64,000 nt of DNA from Trypanosoma brucei. Taxonomy: Eukaryota. Both the position numbers and the translations under genes were made by a program. The stretch spans positions 1,056,001 to 1,120,000 of the forward strand of contig CP000069.1 of NCBI GenBank assembly GCA_000002445.1. Reading direction: 5' to 3'. The notes below the pieces were generated by a model. The model worked only from the letters and a program-made list of their open reading frames with translations. It searched no databases and was not told the origin of the DNA. Shown here one piece after another: positions 20,932 to 31,818 of this stretch (position 1 is the stretch's first letter; each line of letters opens with the position of its first letter).

Positions 20932-21969
20932 TCATTCGAAGTGGTCGTGCTCACCTCCTGCAACTTCACGAGAAAACAAATAACGCGATTCCCACATATA
21001 ATCCTCATCCTCTTCTTCATCGGTGAGTTCATTGGCATTTGTGAAAGAATTACGGTGGCTACGAGGAAACATTCTCTTGCCTTTGTGTTCTCCATAGTCA
21101 AGTGTGAGTTCCTCGCCCACATTAATATCCCTTGCAGCCCGTACAACAACTGTAGCAGTTGGAAGCGACACACAAGCAGCACATGCAGGTGATGAGGCAC
21201 TGTGATTTAACATGTCAACAATTGGTACGATGGCTGACGTTACCGTATCTGTCCTAACGTCATCCGTCCGTATCACCTTCAATTTAAGCACACGAGCACG
21301 CACAACGTAGATGGAAGTAAGAATGGCACTGTCCAATTCGGACGGATGGGCATCGTAAAATCTGTACTCCTCCTGAGGGGCATGTAATAATATGCAATCT
21401 CGCAGATTCCACGCGATCTGCTCGATGGTGGAGTGCACATTTGACCCACACCCACCTTCCGAAAAGTATGGTGCCTCCAAACCATAAGAAAGATACTCAG
21501 TTAAAGGAAGGGAGCTTACGTATAAATCCGCCTTGCGATCTTTTACAGGTCCTAAAGAAGGATTTCCAATACCGACACGAGTTTTGAGTTTCATGACGCT
21601 CTGCCAAAAGTACCGAAGCGCAATGGACACGGCAAGCGACGCCTCCACGGGGGAGAGTGTTAGGGTTACAACTTCATTTTCGTCTGTTGACACGGACGCG
21701 GTAAGTGAAACGCGGTCTTGAGGAAAATCGGGCGACAGTCGCCACAGCCACATCGTTGCCTCGGGGAAAAGTGTGGACCGGTTCCAGCGGCGTAAAGTGC
21801 GAGGGACACGAGACGCATGAGGGAAATAACAGTTACGAGAGGGAACAGAGAGCAACAAATCCCCTTTTCGAAAACAACGGCGCGCGAATAATCCACGGAC
21901 GCTATCATGTCCCCGTCTCGCTTGTAACATAGGTGCCGCACGAGCCCCCAACATGTGAAGCAGCGTCAT
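20932..21969 (-). CDS. SET-domain protein (putative protein lysine methyltransferase)
   Basis: 345-aa ORF with SET N-region (RGLFARRCFRKGDLLLSVP). The C-terminal SET signature is MLNHSASSPACAACV ... GEELTLDYG, i.e. NHSxxPN-like plus ELTxxY. An acidic tail follows. Confidence 0.65.
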   Translation of the reverse strand: MTLLHMLGARAAPMLQARRGHDSVRGLFARRCFRKGDLLLSVPSRNCYFPHASRVPRTLRRWNRSTLFPEATMWLWRLSPDFPQDRVSLTASVSTDENEVVTLTLSPVEASLAVSIALRYFWQSVMKLKTRVGIGNPSLGPVKDRKADLYVSSLPLTEYLSYGLEAPYFSEGGCGSNVHSTIEQIAWNLRDCILLHAPQEEYRFYDAHPSELDSAILTSIYVVRARVLKLKVIRTDDVRTDTVTSAIVPIVDMLNHSASSPACAACVSLPTATVVVRAARDINVGEELTLDYGEHKGKRMFPRSHRNSFTNANELTDEEEDEDYMWESRYLFSREVAGGEHDHFE

Positions 21970-22690: not shown

Positions 22691-24057
22691 CACTCAACCT
22701 CGAGTAACAGCTGGGGGAACAAATCCCTTGTTGGTGTTGAGTGTCTACAGGACGGAGTTTTTAACATTTGTTCAGTGTCCCTTACACGCAGTATAATACA
22801 ATGAACAGGACTTTGATTCCCTTCCACTCTTTCCGTTAATGTGCCCACTCATCGCGCGAAGAAAAAAGGGTGAGGAAAAAGGAAGGAGGCACCTCGAAAA
22901 ACGGATGGAAAAGGGTCGAAAAACATGTAAAATATCGCGAAAATGATGTTTGGAAGAAACATGTGAATCGCAGGAACAAACGCAAGAAAAAGAACCACAA
23001 GTACAAGTACCCCACAATAAGAGGGAAAGGTTTGTGAAAGGCAACGAAGCAAAAAAAAAAATTGCATATGGATATAAAAATACGTTCACAATTCACCTCC
23101 AACTAACGGTAAAGAAAACAAAAAAAAAGTCCTCACGAGCACCCCAACGTAAAGGATTGATTAACACTCGATTTTTTTTTTTAAAAAAAGCGCATAAATG
23201 AACGAAAAGGAAACACCTCTTTACCTCTTCATCTCGATATATCCATTGTTTTCGTACTTTACAAGTCTGACAGCGTGCTATCACCATTCCTTTGAGTGTC
23301 GAGCCGCCCTGACCTTAGCGGTAAAAAATTACAAACAACGCATCAACGCATTTATGTGTAGTGAGGAAAGAAAACCTTGACCCAAACATGAGGTTAACGA
23401 AAAGTAGTAGAACCCAGATAACAACTGTCCCACAGGTCCCACAAACGGGAAAGAAAAAGATATTTACGGTCTGGGCGGGTGCAGTGAGGGATCCATCTAA
23501 AGATGTACAAACTTTTTACAAATAATTACCATGAATCCCAGGTGCGCCATATCCCCTCATTGACAAAACGGAGGAGCCAGAAAAATTACCGCCGCTTCCG
23601 CCCGAGTCCGTTTTAGAGACATGAGTTGACGAAACGGAAGTTGCCTTCGTAGTGGTTGAGGATTCTTTCGGCTTCTCCGACTCGAAGTAACTATTCACTC
23701 TTACTGACGATTTAATCGAGGTTTCCCCAGGTGCAACTGACACAAGCGTACATCCGCTCCCCGACGGCGCAGTGGTGGGCTGATCGTTGGGAAAAGTACG
23801 AGAATAATCGCGAGACTGTACGGCACCGCATACATCGAATTGAGTGTGAGAGGCGCTCGGTGGCAGAATAGCGCTATCGTGAGAGAATGCGGCGCTGTGG
23901 CAAGATCTGCTGCCAAATCCCATAAACGTTCCCTCATTGAGCACTATGGCTTGATGTCCAGGACGGACGTTTACATCAACCCTTTCGGAGATTCCAACTG
24001 CCCCTGAGAAATAAAGAGGTCGTAAATTTGGTCCTTGCGTGGGTTCAAGGCTATTGT

Positions 24058-25287
24058 CTAGTGAATCACCTTGTCGATACAGCGCACTTGTGTCCTTGTT
24101 CCCAAGAGCATCACTGAGGTGTCGAAAGCAGATGATGCATCATCGTTTCCACTTAGTGTCAGTTGCTCTACTTTCAGGCTACCAGTATCACAACTTCTCT
24201 GCCGTAAAGAGCTATGGTACGGATCCGGTGTAGTGCTGCCACTCGCATTATTCCAAAGTACCTCGACACTGGGAAGACTATACACTTCTGCTGGCGATGC
24301 AAATGATACACAATTAAGTACCTTCGGCTCAGCAGTCGAGGTGTTTACAACATCACAGTGTCGATGGAAGTTGCAGCTACCTACGTTTCGTTGCCTAATC
24401 GAAGCCTCCAACTGCGCCACGCGCAACTGTGTCGCATGTAGCTCCTCCTGAAACTTTTTAATTATCATTTCTTGCTCCACCTGCTTTCTTTGCAGGGAAA
24501 TGTTGATATCGTCAGGGGGAGGTGAACATGGCTGACTTGCCACAGGTAACGCTGCATTACCAGTGGAAGCTAACATGGCATTGTCATTCTTGTTTTGTTT
24601 ATTGCAACGTTGCTCGTTTGTCACGAACTCACGCAAAAACGCCAAATCGTGCTTAATTTGTGACACCTCCGCCATCAGTGGGTCATTTGACGCCTCAATT
24701 GCAGCTGATGATTCTGGTGGTGATGCGGTGGCTTCTTCTGTTAATGGATAGTGTTGGACCCTACGGTGACGTTTTATCATGTGAGAATTTAAGGATGAGT
24801 TAGAGGGATAGCTGTTGCCACAATATAAACAAGTGTGTAGCTGCTCCGTTATTCGAGAATGACCCCTCCAGCGTTCGTGCGCGACCTTACGATTAGTTGG
24901 GGAAGCGTCTTGTCGTTTCACGCCGCTCATGGAAACAATCTCTCGCAGTTCCGCCAGTTCTGCAAACACCCGATCACTTTCCTCACGCATGTCACGAAGT
25001 TTTTCTTCAGCTCTTTTTGCCTCAGTTTCCAGCATTTGCTGGCGGTACGAAAGGTACTGAATGGTGCACTGCATCGTACGACTAACTCGCCTCACCAAGT
25101 GATATGCCCTTTTTGAGAAAAACCATTCCAGAGGGAGGTCAAGTTCCTGCCAGCCGATTTGTCGTATCATTGATTCTTTCATTGACGTCTGAGTTCCTTC
25201 CTCAGAGCTGTAAAGCGCAGGCCCATCCACAACGGAAAGAAATGCAATATCACATGGTGGCTGGTGCAACTTAAATTCAAAACCCAT
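24058..25287 (-). CDS. C2H2 zinc-finger, coiled-coil protein (hypothetical)
   Basis: The ORF extends to 25434, but its first 49 codons are read through a telomere-like hexamer repeat (RVRVRVGF) and an upstream Cys/Phe-rich low-complexity stretch. The likely start is Met at 25285-25287 (MGFEFKLHQPP...). The protein has a single C2H2 finger (LHTCLYCGNSYPSNSSLNSHMIKRH) and heptad-rich segments. Confidence 0.55.
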   Translation of the reverse strand: MGFEFKLHQPPCDIAFLSVVDGPALYSSEEGTQTSMKESMIRQIGWQELDLPLEWFFSKRAYHLVRRVSRTMQCTIQYLSYRQQMLETEAKRAEEKLRDMREESDRVFAELAELREIVSMSGVKRQDASPTNRKVAHERWRGHSRITEQLHTCLYCGNSYPSNSSLNSHMIKRHRRVQHYPLTEEATASPPESSAAIEASNDPLMAEVSQIKHDLAFLREFVTNEQRCNKQNKNDNAMLASTGNAALPVASQPCSPPPDDINISLQRKQVEQEMIIKKFQEELHATQLRVAQLEASIRQRNVGSCNFHRHCDVVNTSTAEPKVLNCVSFASPAEVYSLPSVEVLWNNASGSTTPDPYHSSLRQRSCDTGSLKVEQLTLSGNDDASSAFDTSVMLLGTRTQVRCIDKVIH

Positions 25288-25296
25288 CGCCGCGAG

Positions 25297-25328
25297 TCTA
25301 AACCCAACCCTAACCCTAACCCCCCTCA
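25297..25328. repeat. Interstitial telomere-like hexamer repeat (CCCTAA)n on plus / (TTAGGG)n on coding strand, G-quadruplex-capable
   Basis: Plus strand reads ctaaacccaaccctaaccctaacccccc. The minus strand therefore reads GGGGGGTTAGGGTTAGGGTTGGGTTTAG, four G-runs with loops of 3, 3 and 2 nt. Confidence 0.85.
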
Positions 25329-25857
25329 TCAGTTCATTAACAATGCAAATAAAGGGTAAATAAAAAGACACACATACACATAGACTTGAGAATAACTCAC
25401 ACGTGTAGAATACGAAGTAACAAGCAAAAAACAATTAACGGAGCGACCAATACAATTCGTCGGCGTGAGGGGGGGAAGTCATGGCAATTACCAACTTATG
25501 TAGACCTCATGGGCAAAAAGTGTTTCGACCAATATATATGTATACTCTGTACTCTCAACGATAAAAGAGAATACGCATACGAATGCGCCCTCGTTCTGAC
25601 AAACTCAACGATATCACCAAATTATAGTCGCACAAGGGTGTTGTTCTGTCTCCACCAGTAAAAACGGAAGGTGACATTATTCCTCAGGCAGCACTATCTT
25701 ATTCCCATTTCACACTCACAGTGATGAGACCGAGTGAATGGGTGTACGGCTATTTCCTCCGAGGAAGGTAAAATAGTTAGGTATCTTTAAGAAATTATAT
25801 AAAAAACCCTTGGGAAACACCAATAAAAAAAGCGCATCTCGGCATAACCAACTTTTT

Positions 25858-27474
25858 CTAATGTTCGGTGCTGTAGTACTTGTTGAGAAATTCTTTTAAC
25901 ACATCCTTTATTATAGTTCTGTCGCTTACCTTCTGCTGTGATCCGTAAATAGTTGATTTAGCGTTGACAGCACCGTGGCGTCGGCCATTCTTCGTTGCAT
26001 CCTCATATTCCGCAAACATTCTGCCACCAATCTCCGTAACGTCCTCTATAAAGCGATCAGCAACTTCCCCAACCGTCTGCAGTAGCGTGACAGAAAATTG
26101 GAGACCAGATGGAAATTGCAAGCAGTTCAGAACCCAACCTCGGCTACGCAACTCTTCGTTTAAAACGAAAATGTCAATTATGTTACTTCCAAAGGCAAAA
26201 ACACAAGCGGTTGGTTTCCCAATAATGTGTATGTAAGGCAGTTTGGATAACGCATCCGTGATCCTAATCCTCGTTTGTACAATCTTCCGGCAGCAGTCCA
26301 CATAACCCTCCTCTCCGAGTCGTACCATTGATGCCCAGGCGCCAGCAATGACGCTTCCATTCTTTGAACCACAAACTGCTGGGGAACAGTACATGCCACC
26401 AGGCCAGTCCGCTACGCAACAGAACTGGTGGGACCGCAACTCCTGTGTTCTGTAGAGAACAGTCGATGTACCTTTGGGAGCAAAACCATACTTGTGTGTA
26501 TCACAACTGATGGAAGTAACCCCGGGGAGGCGGAAGTCCACAACCGGTGCCGGTAACCCCGCCTTCGCCATGAATGGCACAATGAAACCACCCAAACAAC
26601 AGTCAACATGAAGACCAACGTTGTGCCGGCATGCAATCTCTGACAACTCCTCTATGGGATCAATGACACCGTGAGGAAATGTTGGTGCCGATCCTACAAT
26701 AGCGACTGTGTCATATCTGATGTACTTCTCCATTTCTTTCGCGTCAACCTGCTTCGTGATCGGATCGACAGGTATCTTTACAAGATTAATGCCAAAATAT
26801 TCCGCACCCTTATCAAATGCTGGGTGTGCTGTGATGCCGACAATAACAGAAGGTCGCTCGATCCCCCGGCGAGCCCGTCCCCAATCACGATATGCCTTTA
26901 GAGCCATAACAATACTTTCCGTACCCCCCGATGTAACGGTACCACATGCGTCGGGAAGTAGGTGGCCGTTGAACATGTGAACGACCATCGACACCACCTC
27001 AGCCTCCATTTTACGCACAGCCCCAAAAACATCAGAATGCAGCGGGTTGCTCCACGCAAACATCTTAACAACACGGTTCAACAATTTAGTATGGGAATGC
27101 TCTCCATGATACACTGCGCCGCTTAGAGTGCCATCCTCAAAGGTTTTATCGAGATTTTGGTGAAACTCACTAACCAGGTTGATCACCTCCTCATCTGAAA
27201 AACCCTCCTTCGGTAGCCGTTTGGCTTTAAATTCTCCAGGTTTTGACGGCATCTTTATGCCTTCGGCACTTTTCTTTACTTCCTTCTTTATAATGGGCTC
27301 TACAAAGAACCTCACAACGCGCCACTTTGCGGCATGTAACCGCTTAATGATGCTGCCGTCACGTGCCACATAAATTAGGACTTTGGTTGCAAAGATAGCG
27401 CCGACGGTGAGACACACGATGTGTGACGGTCTTTTCCCCTGAAGACTCCTGTCCAAAAAGCATGACAGCGACAT
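25858..27474 (-). CDS. SPL: Sphingosine-1-phosphate lyase (PLP-dependent group II decarboxylase fold)
   Basis: 538-aa ORF with an N-terminal membrane anchor. SPL-type motifs are GTVTSGGTESIVMALKAYRDW and the PLP-lysine segment SISCDTHKYGFAPKGTSTVLYR. Confidence 0.9.
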   Translation of the reverse strand: MSLSCFLDRSLQGKRPSHIVCLTVGAIFATKVLIYVARDGSIIKRLHAAKWRVVRFFVEPIIKKEVKKSAEGIKMPSKPGEFKAKRLPKEGFSDEEVINLVSEFHQNLDKTFEDGTLSGAVYHGEHSHTKLLNRVVKMFAWSNPLHSDVFGAVRKMEAEVVSMVVHMFNGHLLPDACGTVTSGGTESIVMALKAYRDWGRARRGIERPSVIVGITAHPAFDKGAEYFGINLVKIPVDPITKQVDAKEMEKYIRYDTVAIVGSAPTFPHGVIDPIEELSEIACRHNVGLHVDCCLGGFIVPFMAKAGLPAPVVDFRLPGVTSISCDTHKYGFAPKGTSTVLYRTQELRSHQFCCVADWPGGMYCSPAVCGSKNGSVIAGAWASMVRLGEEGYVDCCRKIVQTRIRITDALSKLPYIHIIGKPTACVFAFGSNIIDIFVLNEELRSRGWVLNCLQFPSGLQFSVTLLQTVGEVADRFIEDVTEIGGRMFAEYEDATKNGRRHGAVNAKSTIYGSQQKVSDRTIIKDVLKEFLNKYYSTEH

Positions 27475-28314
27475 TTTTGTAAATGATGCTAAACTTTATG
27501 TGAATTATTCTTCACACGAGAAAGCGAAAAAAGTATTAAAAAGGCGTGAAAACAACAACTGAATGACAGCACAAAGAATGGGGAGAACTAATTTTTTTGC
27601 TAGCAGAACTAATCACATCCTTCGTGTTTCTACTCGTTAATCCCGCACCTCTCTTATTCATTTTCCCCTCTTCTCCTCCCCCCTTCCGCTTTTTTTATCG
27701 AGTCCACTCTATCTTCGTCTCAAAACAATGCAGCACATGAAATAACTCTATTTTTTAGACACGCACAACAAAAAGAAAAAAAATTGAAACAGAAACGGAA
27801 AAGAAAGCGAAAAGTGAAGAAAAAAAAAGGAAAGAGGAACGAAGCGCCGCCTCTTCGCCTCTCAGCGTCTTCTCTCTCCTTTTTTTTTACGCTGTGAATT
27901 AACCGGAAGATTCCCCGACGTTTTTTCCACGCGTAAGAGCAAAGTTAAACACCAAGAGAAAAACTGACGGTACCTCATTGTCATTGTCATGGGGCACTAA
28001 TAAGGCGGTAAATAATCATTTTTTTTTTAAAAAATGAAGTCAGCAGTATTTATTATGAAAGAGTGGGTCTTTATTTTTTTAAAATCCCATAAGCGGTGAA
28101 ATTACAACCCAGAATTAGAGGTTAAAGAGGAATTGAACAAAAAGAAAAAAAAGTTGCTTCGGGCTACACAAGCGGCCAAACGCGTTCCTCAAGGCGCCAA
28201 GAAGGGGGTGTAGGAAAATGTCGAAAGAAAAAAAAAAAGAAATGACTGCACAAAAAAAAACATGTACAGTGAGCCAAGTAGAGGCATTCAAACAGCAAAA
28301 CGAAGCACAAACGT

Positions 28315-30406: not shown

Positions 30407-30799
30407 CGTTGAAGAGGTACTGCCGCAATGAGCGGTTCAGGGGTGGAAAGAAAAAAAAAAAAAGAAAGGAACCACAAACGGAACTCGCTTTTACCTCTAA
30501 CGGGAGAATAATCTAGGGGGTTTAATCCAGTCTTTTTTTCCCCTCCTCAGGTGATGAAGAATTGAAGCGAACAACTTTTTAAAAAAGCAGTCAGTAGGGG
30601 AGAAGAATGAAAATAAAAGTGTGGCGAGTACTCAAACAAGCAGCGGACCATTCAACACACAGAGCGAGGGCAACCAGAAAGAGGGAGGGGGAAAGGGGAA
30701 AGGGAAGGTGGATGAGTTTAACGTGCTCAAAAGAAATAGGGGAGAAGAAAACACCCACAATTATGCCGCAAAAAACTTTCTTAACAAACACCACTGTGC

Positions 30800-30820
30800 T
30801 CCCCCCCCCCAAAAAAAAAA
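30800..30820. repeat. Homopolymer junction C11/A10
   Basis: Direct read: ctcccccccccccaaaaaaaaaag. A second C9 run lies at 30969-30977. Confidence 0.85.
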
Positions 30821-31818
30821 GACTCAAAAATATGGTCAATTTATGAATGACTCATGGTAGCGACAGAAGGTGTAGTGTGAAGAAAGCCAAGTGTCTCACA
30901 CACAATATGCCGAGGGAGACATTTAAACGAAAAAGTGACCGTACAGTAAATATTTTATCTTCTCTTCACCCCCCCCCCGCCATTTGCGTGTTTGCTTTTC
31001 TTTTTCCACGTACAAATTTGTAAGCGGCACATTTTTTTTAAAAAAATGGACAATTAATGTGGCTTGGAGACATGGCCCACACACACCTTTGCATTATTTT
31101 TTTTTGTTTCATTTCTTCCTCCGACTTGTCCATCTTCACACCTCCTATCCGGACTCAATTTCTCTTTATTCATTTTTCTAGGGGCCCTCCCACATTGTCC
31201 TCCACGTAAAAATATAAAGCCAGAGCACAAACAAAAAAATTCAAATGGTGCCACCACAAAATGATTGTTTCCCTTACAACGGCAAAAGCGTCAAAAAAAA
31301 TCAATGAAAAAGTAAAAGGGAAGGAGTAGACTTCACAAGCACTTCATTTCGCTCCCCTCTCGCTCATTCTAACTTCAAACGGTACCTTCATCCTTCTTTC
31401 ACACACACCTTTGCACGTCCCTTCTGTTCCGACCACAATAATACGCTCCGTAAAAACGTATTTAATTCCCCCTCTTTTCTCTATTCATGTCTTTCCGACC
31501 GCATCTAAGCTCAAATGACAATTAATTCACCCATCCTTCCTAACGAAAGAAACAATATTATTAATATCAATAAGAAGAGTCACACACACTCACACAACCA
31601 AAGTGTCCCCATTATCGGTTACGCTTTTGCAATGCAATCGCTCAACCAGAGGAACCAAAAGAGGGAAGGTAGTGGCAGTGACATCAATGTTATATATGAC
31701 ATGGAGATAAACGTAAACATATATGAATATCATATGTGAGTGAGGCATGAGCGTGTCTATTGAAGTCTTCCCCCAGGAAATTATTTGCTTTCAGCGCCTT
31801 ACAGACATCAGCTTCCAA

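What the first reader, a model, noticed from the sequence alone, without database searches (positions are those of the whole stretch)
25285..25330. Telomere-type (TTAGGG)3 hexamer repeat, G4-capable, abutting the start codon of the zinc-finger gene
Starting 9 nt upstream of the probable ATG at 25285-25287, the coding strand reads GGGGGGTTAGGGTTAGGGTTGGGTTTAG. This is three telomeric hexamers plus flanking G-runs, which is a canonical four-tract G-quadruplex motif. Interstitial telomeric repeats are rare in kinetoplastid chromosome cores. The repeat sits in the trans-splice acceptor/5'UTR zone, and each TTAGGG supplies an AG dinucleotide. An RNA or DNA G4 here could modulate splicing or translation, or bind telomere/TTAGGG-binding factors. 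If the repeat is instead translated, from the upstream Met at 25327-25329, it yields RVRVRV.
Basis: partly seen in the sequence, partly recalled or inferred. Interest (0 to 1): 0.5.

Follow-up and report, generated by a model that had tools for sequence, protein, structure and literature searches.

The report
Telomere-like repeat in a trypanosome gene leader
A short stretch of telomere-type sequence really does sit just upstream of the true start codon of a Trypanosoma brucei zinc-finger gene, but it is a species-specific, non-coding oddity in the mRNA-leader attachment zone, with no evidence so far that it regulates anything.

Summary
On the minus strand, 25325-25303 reads GGGGGGTTAGGGTTAGGGTTGGG. 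That is a 17-nt perfect telomeric match (about 2.8 units; TRF.8 copies at 94%) and a canonical four-tract G4 motif (G4Hunter 2.08, one of the three strongest sites in 64 kb). It is far beyond chance (0.002-0.02 expected per 26-Mb chromosome core). It is identical in T. b. gambiense and T. equiperdum, so it is not an assembly artefact.

The gene is Tb927.6.3620 on chromosome 6. GenBank starts its CDS at the upstream ATG (25329), which makes the repeat "coding" (MRGVRVRV...). Orthologues in T. vivax, T. grayi, T. rangeli and Angomonas all start at the downstream Met (25287) and lack the repeat. The repeat is therefore most likely a T. brucei-clade-specific, non-coding 5' leader.

It lies right after a 46-nt polypyrimidine tract and 113-140 nt from the upstream gene's mapped poly(A) site. 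It holds the first four AG acceptors. Only the first, a disfavoured GAG, would leave four G-tracts in the mature mRNA. No spliced-leader junction data could be retrieved, so G4 or TRF function remains untested.

Verdict: a real, mildly unusual new instance of known kinds of element. Modest interest.

The parts
25303..25325 (-). Telomere-like tract and four-tract G4 motif, GGGGGGTTAGGGTTAGGGTTGGG. The perfect telomeric 17-mer spans 25306-25322. The TRF array spans 25301-25322.
   Evidence: PQS regex, G4Hunter 2.08; 17-nt perfect match, chance expectation; TRF 3.8 copies. Identical in T. b. gambiense and T. equiperdum.
25285..25287 (-). Probable true start codon of Tb927.6.3620 (MGFEFKLHQPP...).
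   Evidence: This Met is invariant and is the first residue in the T. vivax, T. grayi, T. rangeli (x2) and Angomonas orthologues. In T. vivax an in-frame stop lies 33 nt upstream.
25327..25329 (-). Upstream in-frame ATG, used as the annotated start in GenBank (XP_845480.1, 423 aa). It would translate the repeat as MRGVRVRVGFRLAA. It is probably not in the mature mRNA.
   Evidence: the CDS range ends at chr6 1081329, which is window 25329. The extension is absent from all non-brucei orthologues. The ATG lies immediately 5' of the first acceptor AG.
25298..25326 (-). Four candidate trans-splice acceptor AGs: GAG at 25326/25, TAG at 25317/16, TAG at 25311/10 and TAG at 25299/98. They would give 5'UTRs of 37, 28, 22 and 10 nt.
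   Evidence: AG list, -3 base, distance to the poly(A) site. (Kolev 2010 rules: AG plus polypyrimidine tract, G excluded at -3). (only the GAG isoform and the pre-mRNA fold into a G4). This is inference; no SL junction data were obtained.
25339..25384 (-). Polypyrimidine tract (46 nt by Kolev's definition) that should direct SL addition to Tb927.6.3620.
   Evidence: The definition and genome-wide statistics come from PMC2936537.
25437..25437 (-). Major poly(A) site of the upstream gene Tb927.6.3630 (sphingosine-1-phosphate lyase). The 3'UTR is 421 nt.
   Evidence: Kolev 2010 Table S13 gives chr6 1081437. The window offset of 1,056,000 is confirmed by the Tb927.6.3620 coordinates in Vasquez 2014.
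24058..25287 (-). Tb927.6.3620 coding sequence as it reads in this strain (C2H2 zinc-finger protein). A 1-nt deletion near 24100/24101 truncates it. The full-length frame continues to 23516.
25858..27474 (-). Upstream gene Tb927.6.3630, sphingosine-1-phosphate lyase.

Best explanation
This is a genuine short interstitial telomere-like tract of about 2.8 GGGTTA units preceded by a G6 run. It lies on the sense strand of Tb927.6.3620, between the gene's polypyrimidine tract and its conserved start codon.

It is non-coding. The annotated upstream ATG and the 'MRGVRVRVGFRLAA' extension are artefacts of a longest-ORF annotation.

The tract is specific to the T. brucei clade. It most likely arose by telomere-templated or telomerase-assisted break repair, or by hexamer slippage (inferred).

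Its main mechanistic role is passive. It is the spliced-leader acceptor zone, and the SL is most probably added at one of its T-preceded AGs (TTAG). Mature mRNAs would then carry a very short leader of 10-28 nt with at most three G-runs. Only the pre-mRNA, the non-template DNA strand, or a minor GAG-spliced isoform carries the full four-tract G4 motif.

Any regulatory effect is unproven and probably small.

Shown: the sequence, its non-randomness, its conservation within the T. brucei clade, its absence in outgroups, the orthologous start codon, and the neighbouring poly(A) site.
Inferred: the acceptor site(s), G4 formation, and the origin.
For: - Sequence and G4 scores.
- Beyond chance.
- Identical in two other T. 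brucei-clade assemblies.
- Six orthologue N-termini all start at the downstream Met, and the upstream DNA of T. vivax and T. grayi has no telomere-like tract.
- The gene order RING-SPL-ZnF-SET is kept in T. grayi, and RING-SPL-ZnF in T. vivax up to the end of the contig. The tract is therefore not a chromosome-fusion scar.
- A 46-nt polypyrimidine tract ends 13 nt before the first AG.
- The poly(A) site of the upstream gene is at 25437, which places the four AGs 113-140 nt downstream. The genome median is 142 nt and the interquartile range is 123-178.
- G is excluded at -3 of T. brucei splice sites. This disfavours the only acceptor that preserves four G-tracts.
- ViennaRNA with G-quadruplex energies predicts a G4 only for the GAG isoform and the pre-mRNA.
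- Thousands of G4 sites exist in T. brucei, and most G4-seq K+ peaks are intergenic. A PQS in a leader region is therefore not special in itself: PMC13316426.
Against: - No SL-junction data for this gene could be retrieved.
- Tb927.6.3620 is absent from Kolev's complete Table S1, which lists 532 genes whose SAS maps inside the annotated ORF, and from Table S2, which lists genes with no transcript. If the SAS lay in the repeat and enough reads existed, the gene should have been listed. The transcript is low-abundance (148 RNA reads) and Kolev dropped sites with fewer than 10 reads, so this is weak counter-evidence, not refutation.
- Perfect conservation of the last ~170 nt before the ATG between TREU927 and gambiense is compatible with constraint. 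The overall divergence is too low (~98-99%) to tell.
- T. congolense, the key intermediate outgroup, could not be examined.
Confidence: 0.55

Rival explanations
1. Functional G-quadruplex switch. The four-tract motif folds in the pre-mRNA, in a GAG-spliced mRNA, or on the non-template DNA strand. The fold modulates acceptor choice among the embedded AGs and/or represses translation of a very short 5'UTR.
For: - Canonical PQS with G4Hunter 2.08.
- TERRA-like loops.
- ViennaRNA gquad gains about 7 kcal/mol for the GAG isoform and about 4 kcal/mol for the pre-mRNA, and the fold covers the acceptor AGs.
- The tract is unchanged in three T. brucei-clade genomes.
- G4 ligands alter expression of G4-bearing genes in T. 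brucei (PMC12267983 and PMC13316426).
Against: - The tract is not conserved in T. vivax or T. grayi.
- The favoured acceptors remove at least one G-tract.
- Conservation within the T. brucei clade has no statistical power, because the flanking DNA is ~98-99% identical.
- There is no experimental G4 or expression data for this locus.
Confidence: 0.2
2. The repeat is translated. An mRNA spliced upstream, for example at the AG at 25386/85, starts translation at ATG 25329. This gives an Arg/Val-rich 14-residue N-terminal extension (MRGVRVRVGFRLAA), possibly a targeting presequence. Alternative trans-splicing might produce it alongside the short form.
For: - The ATG is in frame with no stop.
- It is the annotated start in three GenBank genomes.
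- The gene is not flagged as start-misannotated by Kolev 2010.
- Alternative trans-splicing that gives N-terminal isoforms is documented in T. brucei (PMC2916883 and PMC3273800).
- The extension is basic and lacks acidic residues (read directly from the sequence).
Against: - The extension is absent from all orthologues outside the T. brucei clade, which start exactly at the downstream Met.
- The 46-nt polypyrimidine tract would lie inside such a 5'UTR. The AG at 25386 is only 53 nt from the upstream poly(A) site, against a median of 142 nt.
- The ATG context has C at -3, where the downstream ATG has G at -3 and G at +4. This is weak evidence (PMC13069569).
- The single substitution in T. equiperdum is non-synonymous (R to G).
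Confidence: 0.1
3. Protein-bound interstitial telomeric site. Duplex TTAGGG-binding factors (TbTRF with TIF2/RAP1) or base-J machinery recognise the tract and locally affect chromatin, transcription elongation or RNA processing. Alternatively, TbTRF binds the UUAGGG-containing RNA.
For: - The site holds two perfect TTAGGG units and a 17-nt telomeric match.
- TbTRF binds duplex TTAGGG and TERRA (PMC4227783 and PMC8191777).
- In other eukaryotes TRF2 and telo-box factors act at short interstitial sites (PMC12536529, listed; telo-boxes from general knowledge).
Against: - The tract is very short.
- The published T. brucei TRF ChIP-seq description mentions enrichment only at chromosome ends (PMC12975129).
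- The tract is not conserved outside the T. brucei clade.
- No locus-specific data exist.
Confidence: 0.05
4. Chance resemblance or assembly artefact with no biological identity.
For: The 12-mer (TTAGGG)2 alone is not significant in a 64-kb window.
Against: - The 17-nt perfect match is expected 0.002-0.02 times per 26 Mb.
- The tract is identical in three independently assembled genomes.
Confidence: 0.03

Closest known systems
Short interstitial telomeric sequences (short ITS), as described in vertebrate, plant and fungal genomes
   Same: - A few tandem copies of the organism's own telomeric hexamer sit deep inside a chromosome. The site is chr6 position ~1.08 Mb of 1.62 Mb.
- The tract is lineage-specific.
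- No synteny break is associated with it, as expected for repair-mediated insertions.
   Different: - It is shorter than most catalogued ITS (about 2.8 units).
- It lies in a trans-splice acceptor / 5' leader, a context that exists only in SL-trans-splicing organisms.
- Its origin by telomerase or repair is inferred, not shown.
5'UTR RNA G-quadruplexes that repress translation (e.g. NRAS, TRF2 5'UTR) and TERRA-type UUAGGG G4s
   Same: - It has four G3+ tracts with UUA/UU loops on the sense strand, within 15 nt of the start codon.
- It is predicted to fold.
   Different: - Whether the motif survives in the mature mRNA depends on which AG is used. The favoured acceptors cut into it.
- There is no conservation across orthologues and no functional data.
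Plant telo-boxes (AAACCCTA) in promoters and 5'UTRs
   Same: Both are short telomere-derived motifs just upstream of a coding region. The plus strand here reads AACCCTAACCCTAA.
   Different: - Telo-boxes are recurrent across many genes and act on transcription initiation.
- Trypanosome genes have no individual promoters.
- This is a single locus with no evidence of recurrence.
Telomeric 22Ag-type PQS catalogued in T. brucei (PMC12267983)
   Same: It has the same G3-TTA loop architecture. It is a variant with a TT third loop and a G6 first run, like the 'variants of 22Ag' described there.
   Different: Those motifs are overwhelmingly in VSG, expression-site and unitig DNA. This one is in a housekeeping chromosome core, next to a non-VSG gene.

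Membership tests
Canonical putative G-quadruplex sequence (PQS) | G3+ N1-7 G3+ N1-7 G3+ N1-7 G3+ on one strand | tested here: met
   The regex hit at 25325-25303 (minus strand) is one of 3 in the window.
Canonical putative G-quadruplex sequence (PQS) | G4Hunter score above the usual thresholds (1.2-2.0, 25-nt window) | tested here: met
   The score is 2.08. Only 3 sites in 64 kb reach 2.0.
Canonical putative G-quadruplex sequence (PQS) | Experimental G4 formation (CD or melting, G4-seq, BG4 ChIP) | not testable with these tools
   Only a thermodynamic prediction is available: ViennaRNA gquad gives -14.5 kcal/mol for the isolated RNA motif.
Interstitial telomeric sequence | Tandem copies of the species' telomeric repeat (TTAGGG in T. 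brucei) beyond chance | tested here: met
   There is a 17-nt perfect match. TRF.8 copies at 94%. The expectation is 0.002-0.02 per 26 Mb.
Interstitial telomeric sequence | Non-terminal chromosomal location | tested here: met
   The site is at chr6 ~1,081,3xx of a 1,618,915-bp chromosome. It is flanked by conserved housekeeping genes in conserved order.
Interstitial telomeric sequence | Occupancy by telomere-repeat binding proteins | not testable with these tools
   The TRF ChIP-seq in PMC12975129 is described only for chromosome ends.
5'UTR RNA G-quadruplex regulator | The complete motif is present in the mature mRNA 5'UTR | tested here: inconclusive
   The SL junction was not retrievable. By sequence rules, 1 of 4 candidate acceptors keeps four tracts, and it is a disfavoured GAG.
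5'UTR RNA G-quadruplex regulator | Evolutionary conservation of the motif at the orthologous position | tested here: not met
   The motif is present in T. b. brucei, T. b. gambiense and T. equiperdum. It is absent upstream of the T. vivax and T. grayi orthologues.
Protein-coding N-terminal extension | The extension is conserved in orthologues, or at least an upstream in-frame start is present | tested here: not met
   All five proteins from outside the T. brucei clade start at the downstream Met. T. vivax has an in-frame stop 33 nt upstream.
Trypanosome trans-splice acceptor region | AG dinucleotide(s) directly downstream of a polypyrimidine tract, with a non-G base at -3 | tested here: met
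   A 46-nt polypyrimidine tract (25384-25339) is followed by GAG, TAG, TAG and TAG. The rules come from PMC2936537.
Trypanosome trans-splice acceptor region | Typical spacing from the upstream gene's poly(A) site | tested here: met
   The spacing is 113-140 nt. The genome median is 142 nt and the interquartile range is 123-178.
Trypanosome trans-splice acceptor region | Observed SL-mRNA junction reads | not testable with these tools
   The stored supplements of Kolev, Nilsson, Jensen and Vasquez do not hold the SAS of Tb927.6.3620. The supplements of Siegel 2010 and the paper of Parsons 2015 are not held.

The most novel reading that the evidence does not exclude
The telomeric hexamers act as a built-in toggle. 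Choice among the AGs embedded in TTAGGG units decides whether the mRNA carries a TERRA-like four-tract rG4 abutting the spliced leader. That element could be read by TERRA/TTAGGG-binding proteins such as TbTRF. This would couple expression of a T. brucei zinc-finger (DZIP1-like) protein to G4 or telomere-factor status. It would be a lineage-specific regulatory innovation built from a captured telomere fragment.
Probability: 0.05. Interest if true: 0.6.

Novelty: new member of a known kind. Interest (0 to 1): 0.27.

Why it matters
The practical value is mostly for annotation. The start codon of Tb927.6.3620 and of its gambiense and equiperdum orthologues is probably 42 nt too far upstream. The 'RVRVRV' N-terminus would then be an artefact of a telomere-like repeat that happens to be in frame.

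Biologically, the site is a clean, single-copy, chromosome-internal telomere-type G4 motif. It sits exactly where the spliced leader is added. That makes it a convenient natural test case for three questions:
- Do G4s influence trans-splice-site choice or translation in trypanosomes?
- Does TbTRF visit non-telomeric TTAGGG?
- How do short interstitial telomeric sequences arise in a genome whose cores otherwise almost lack them?

Nothing found here suggests that it is more than a neutral, recent insertion.

Tried and rejected
1. Direct SL acceptor mapping from the literature. None of the sources gave the splice acceptor site (SAS):
- Nilsson 2010 supplements had no entry.
- Kolev 2010 Tables S4 and S12 are truncated in storage. 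Only the neighbour's poly(A) site (Table S13) was recovered, plus the negative result that the gene is not in Tables S1 or S2.
- Siegel 2010 supplements are not held.
- Jensen 2014 had no entry.
- Vasquez 2014 gave only CDS coordinates and the ribosome-release score.
- The ORFeome paper and the Kozak paper had no entry or no files.
- Parsons 2015 is not held.

2. An exact-sequence look-up of the window's 423-aa ORF in assemblies, in the hope of finding RNA-seq contigs that carry the SL, found nothing on record. The protein cluster contains only three NCBI genome entries.

3. T. congolense is the most informative outgroup, but only a UniRef protein without DNA is available for the neighbouring gene.

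4. A known structured RNA, including a telomerase-RNA-like template on the C-rich strand, was considered. Rfam gave no hit at E <= 1 over 24800-25900, so this was rejected.

5. A chromosome-fusion scar was rejected because gene order is conserved in T. grayi and T. vivax.

6. Kozak context cannot decide between the two ATGs. T. brucei lacks a genome-wide consensus (PMC13069569). The downstream ATG is only marginally better (-3G, +4G).

7. The window-level shuffle test of the 12-mer was not significant. It was replaced by a Markov expectation for the full 17-nt match.
Full report
**What is there**

The window is Trypanosoma brucei brucei TREU927 chromosome 6, and window coordinate = chromosome coordinate - 1,056,000. 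Two results fix this. The 423-aa ORF equals XP_845480.1 'zinc finger protein, putative'. Vasquez et al. 2014 list Tb927.6.3620 at Tb927_06_v4:1079977-1081329 with a 1272-nt CDS.

Genes here run on the minus strand in the order RING/B-box protein, sphingosine-1-phosphate lyase (Tb927.6.3630), the zinc-finger gene, then a SET-domain gene.

Upstream of the zinc-finger ORF the minus strand reads CTG-ATG-A-GGGGGG-TTAGGG-TTAGGG-TTGGG-TTTAG-ACTCGCGGCG-ATG-GGT.

Three small corrections apply:
- Only two TTAGGG units are perfect. In the GGGTTA register the perfect telomeric match is 17 nt (25322-25306), and the third unit lacks its A.
- Tandem Repeats Finder.8 copies at 94% identity. Its score of 37 is below the usual threshold.
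- 10 nt, not 9, separate TTTAG from the ATG.

**Is it more than chance, and is it real?**

The 12-mer (TTAGGG)2 alone is unremarkable in 64 kb (1 hit against 0.10 expected; 9 of 100 shuffles reach it). The 17-nt perfect match is a different matter. Under order 0-2 Markov models trained on the window it is expected 5e-6 to 4e-5 times per window and 0.002-0.02 times per 26 Mb of chromosome core.

The tract is base-for-base identical in T. b. gambiense DAL972 and T. equiperdum. In T. equiperdum the only nearby change is TTTAG to TTTGG.

The tract is a canonical four-tract G4 motif. It is one of three such motifs in the window, and one of three sites with G4Hunter (25 nt) of at least 2.0, scoring 2.08.

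For context, thousands of G4 sites have been mapped in T. brucei, and most G4-seq K+ peaks are intergenic (PMC13316426). Telomere-type (22Ag-like) motifs, by contrast, are reported almost exclusively in VSG, expression-site and unitig DNA and only sporadically in chromosome cores (PMC12267983). As a PQS the site is ordinary. As a telomere-type tract in a housekeeping core it is uncommon.

**Coding or not?**

GenBank starts the CDS at the upstream ATG (25329) in TREU927, gambiense and equiperdum. The repeat is therefore currently annotated as coding: MRGVRVRVGF(R/G)LAA-MGFEF....

Orthologues recovered through the protein search and through the flanks of the neighbouring lyase gene all begin at the second Met:
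- T. vivax: MEFRFELRQPP, with an in-frame stop 33 nt upstream
- T. grayi: MAFEFRLRHPP
- T. rangeli: MTFEFQLHQPP
- Angomonas: MTFHFQLLNPP

In the alignment that Met is invariant, and the 14-residue extension exists only in the T. brucei clade. The upstream DNA of T. vivax and T. grayi has no telomere-like tract. Gene order is conserved, so the tract is not a fusion scar. The extension is most likely an annotation artefact.

**Where is the spliced leader added?**

I could not retrieve SL junction data for this gene, so this part is inference.

Kolev et al. 2010 report the following rules:
- T. brucei acceptor sites are an AG downstream of a polypyrimidine tract.
- G is excluded at -3.
- The polypyrimidine tract starts a median 43 nt upstream of the site.
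- The acceptor lies a median 142 nt (interquartile range 123-178) downstream of the upstream gene's poly(A) site.

Their Table S13 places the lyase's major poly(A) site at chr6 1081437, which is window 25437.

By their definition the polypyrimidine tract is 46 nt long (25384-25339). The next four AGs are:

| Acceptor | Window position | Distance from poly(A) site |
|---|---|---|
| GAG | 25326/25 | 113 nt |
| TAG | 25317/16 | 122 nt |
| TAG | 25311/10 | 128 nt |
| TAG | 25299/98 | 140 nt |

All four lie at the edge of, inside, or just after the telomere-like tract, and all are downstream of the annotated ATG.

The first AG is in the disfavoured GAG context. The three T-preceded AGs are supplied by the hexamers themselves and by TTTAG. 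Splicing at GAG would give a 37-nt leader that keeps four G-tracts. Splicing at the TAGs gives leaders of 28, 22 or 10 nt with at most three G-runs.

ViennaRNA with G-quadruplex energies predicts a G4 only for the GAG isoform (-36.6 against -29.7 kcal/mol without the G4) and for the pre-mRNA. In the pre-mRNA the fold would cover the acceptor AGs.

One result points the other way. The gene is not in Kolev's complete list of 532 genes whose SAS maps inside the annotated ORF, nor in the list of genes with no transcript. The transcript is of low abundance (148 RNA reads), and Kolev discarded sites with fewer than 10 reads. This weakens the inference but does not overturn it.

**Most likely explanation**

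The tract is a recent, T. brucei-clade-specific short interstitial telomeric sequence that landed or expanded in the splice-acceptor / 5' leader region of Tb927.6.3620. It is non-coding. It passively supplies acceptor AGs. It is G4-capable on the non-template DNA strand and in the pre-mRNA. It probably has little or no dedicated function (confidence about 0.55).

The rivals are:
- a functional G4 switch on splicing or translation (about 0.2)
- a truly translated Arg/Val-rich extension from an upstream-spliced mRNA (about 0.1)
- a TRF- or base-J-bound interstitial site (about 0.05). The published TRF ChIP-seq description mentions only chromosome ends (PMC12975129).
- chance or artefact (about 0.03)

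No known RNA family matches the region.

**Comparison with known systems**

The tract meets the tested sequence and location criteria for a canonical PQS and for a short interstitial telomeric sequence. It also meets the sequence and spacing criteria for a trypanosome trans-splice acceptor region.

For a 5'UTR rG4 regulator, one criterion fails and one is inconclusive. Conservation across orthologues is not met. Presence of the full motif in the mature mRNA is unresolved.

It fails the test for a conserved coding extension.

It resembles plant telo-boxes and vertebrate short ITS in being a telomere-derived motif next to a gene start. It is a single locus, in an organism without gene-specific promoters.

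**Verdict**

The location and start-codon parts of the interpretation are supported. The functional parts are untested, and outgroup absence together with the splice-site rules makes them somewhat less likely.

This is a new instance of known kinds of element. Interest is modest (0.27). The main uses are as an annotation correction and as a convenient natural test locus for G4 effects on trans-splicing.

Noticed in passing
window 24100-24101 (minus strand); ORFs 24058-25329 and 23516-23944: In TREU927 the zinc-finger ORF is cut to 423 aa by a 1-nt deletion in an A-run (GGG-AACAAGG against GGGAAACAAGG). T. b. gambiense and T. equiperdum encode 604 aa, and the missing C-terminus is the next ORF (23516-23944) in another frame. 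Vasquez 2014 give a ribosome release score of only 1.20, so footprints continue past the TREU927 stop. This suggests a strain-specific or reference-sequence frameshift.
   Followed up: partly
window 24058-25287 (minus); alignment A3: The protein shows sub-threshold matches to the Iguana/Dzip1-like N-terminal domain (PF13815; best E 0.001; 4 of 8 orthologues). A single C2H2 finger and coiled coil follow. This architecture is reminiscent of the ciliary basal-body protein DZIP1.
   Followed up: partly
L002 5174-5178 (T. equiperdum), equivalent to window 25298-25302: T. equiperdum has TTTGG instead of TTTAG. This removes the fourth candidate acceptor AG and changes R to G in the annotated extension.
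   Followed up: no
window 27665-27689 (minus), 30679-30711 (plus), 30801-30810 and 30970-30979 (minus): Other strong G-rich sites lie in neighbouring intergenic regions. One is a purine-rich G-tract about 190 nt upstream of the lyase ATG (G4Hunter 2.0). One is a C/T-rich polypyrimidine block whose complement scores 2.24. Two are G10 runs upstream of the RING/B-box gene. None is telomere-like.
   Followed up: no
L003 6640-6699 (T. vivax contig end): The T. vivax orthologue runs into a long CAA/CAG (poly-Gln) repeat, and the contig ends there. This is probably why the gene is not called in that assembly.
   Followed up: no
window 21659-21668 (plus): This is the only other telomeric match of at least 10 nt in the window (GTTAGGGTTA). 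It is compatible with chance.
   Followed up: no
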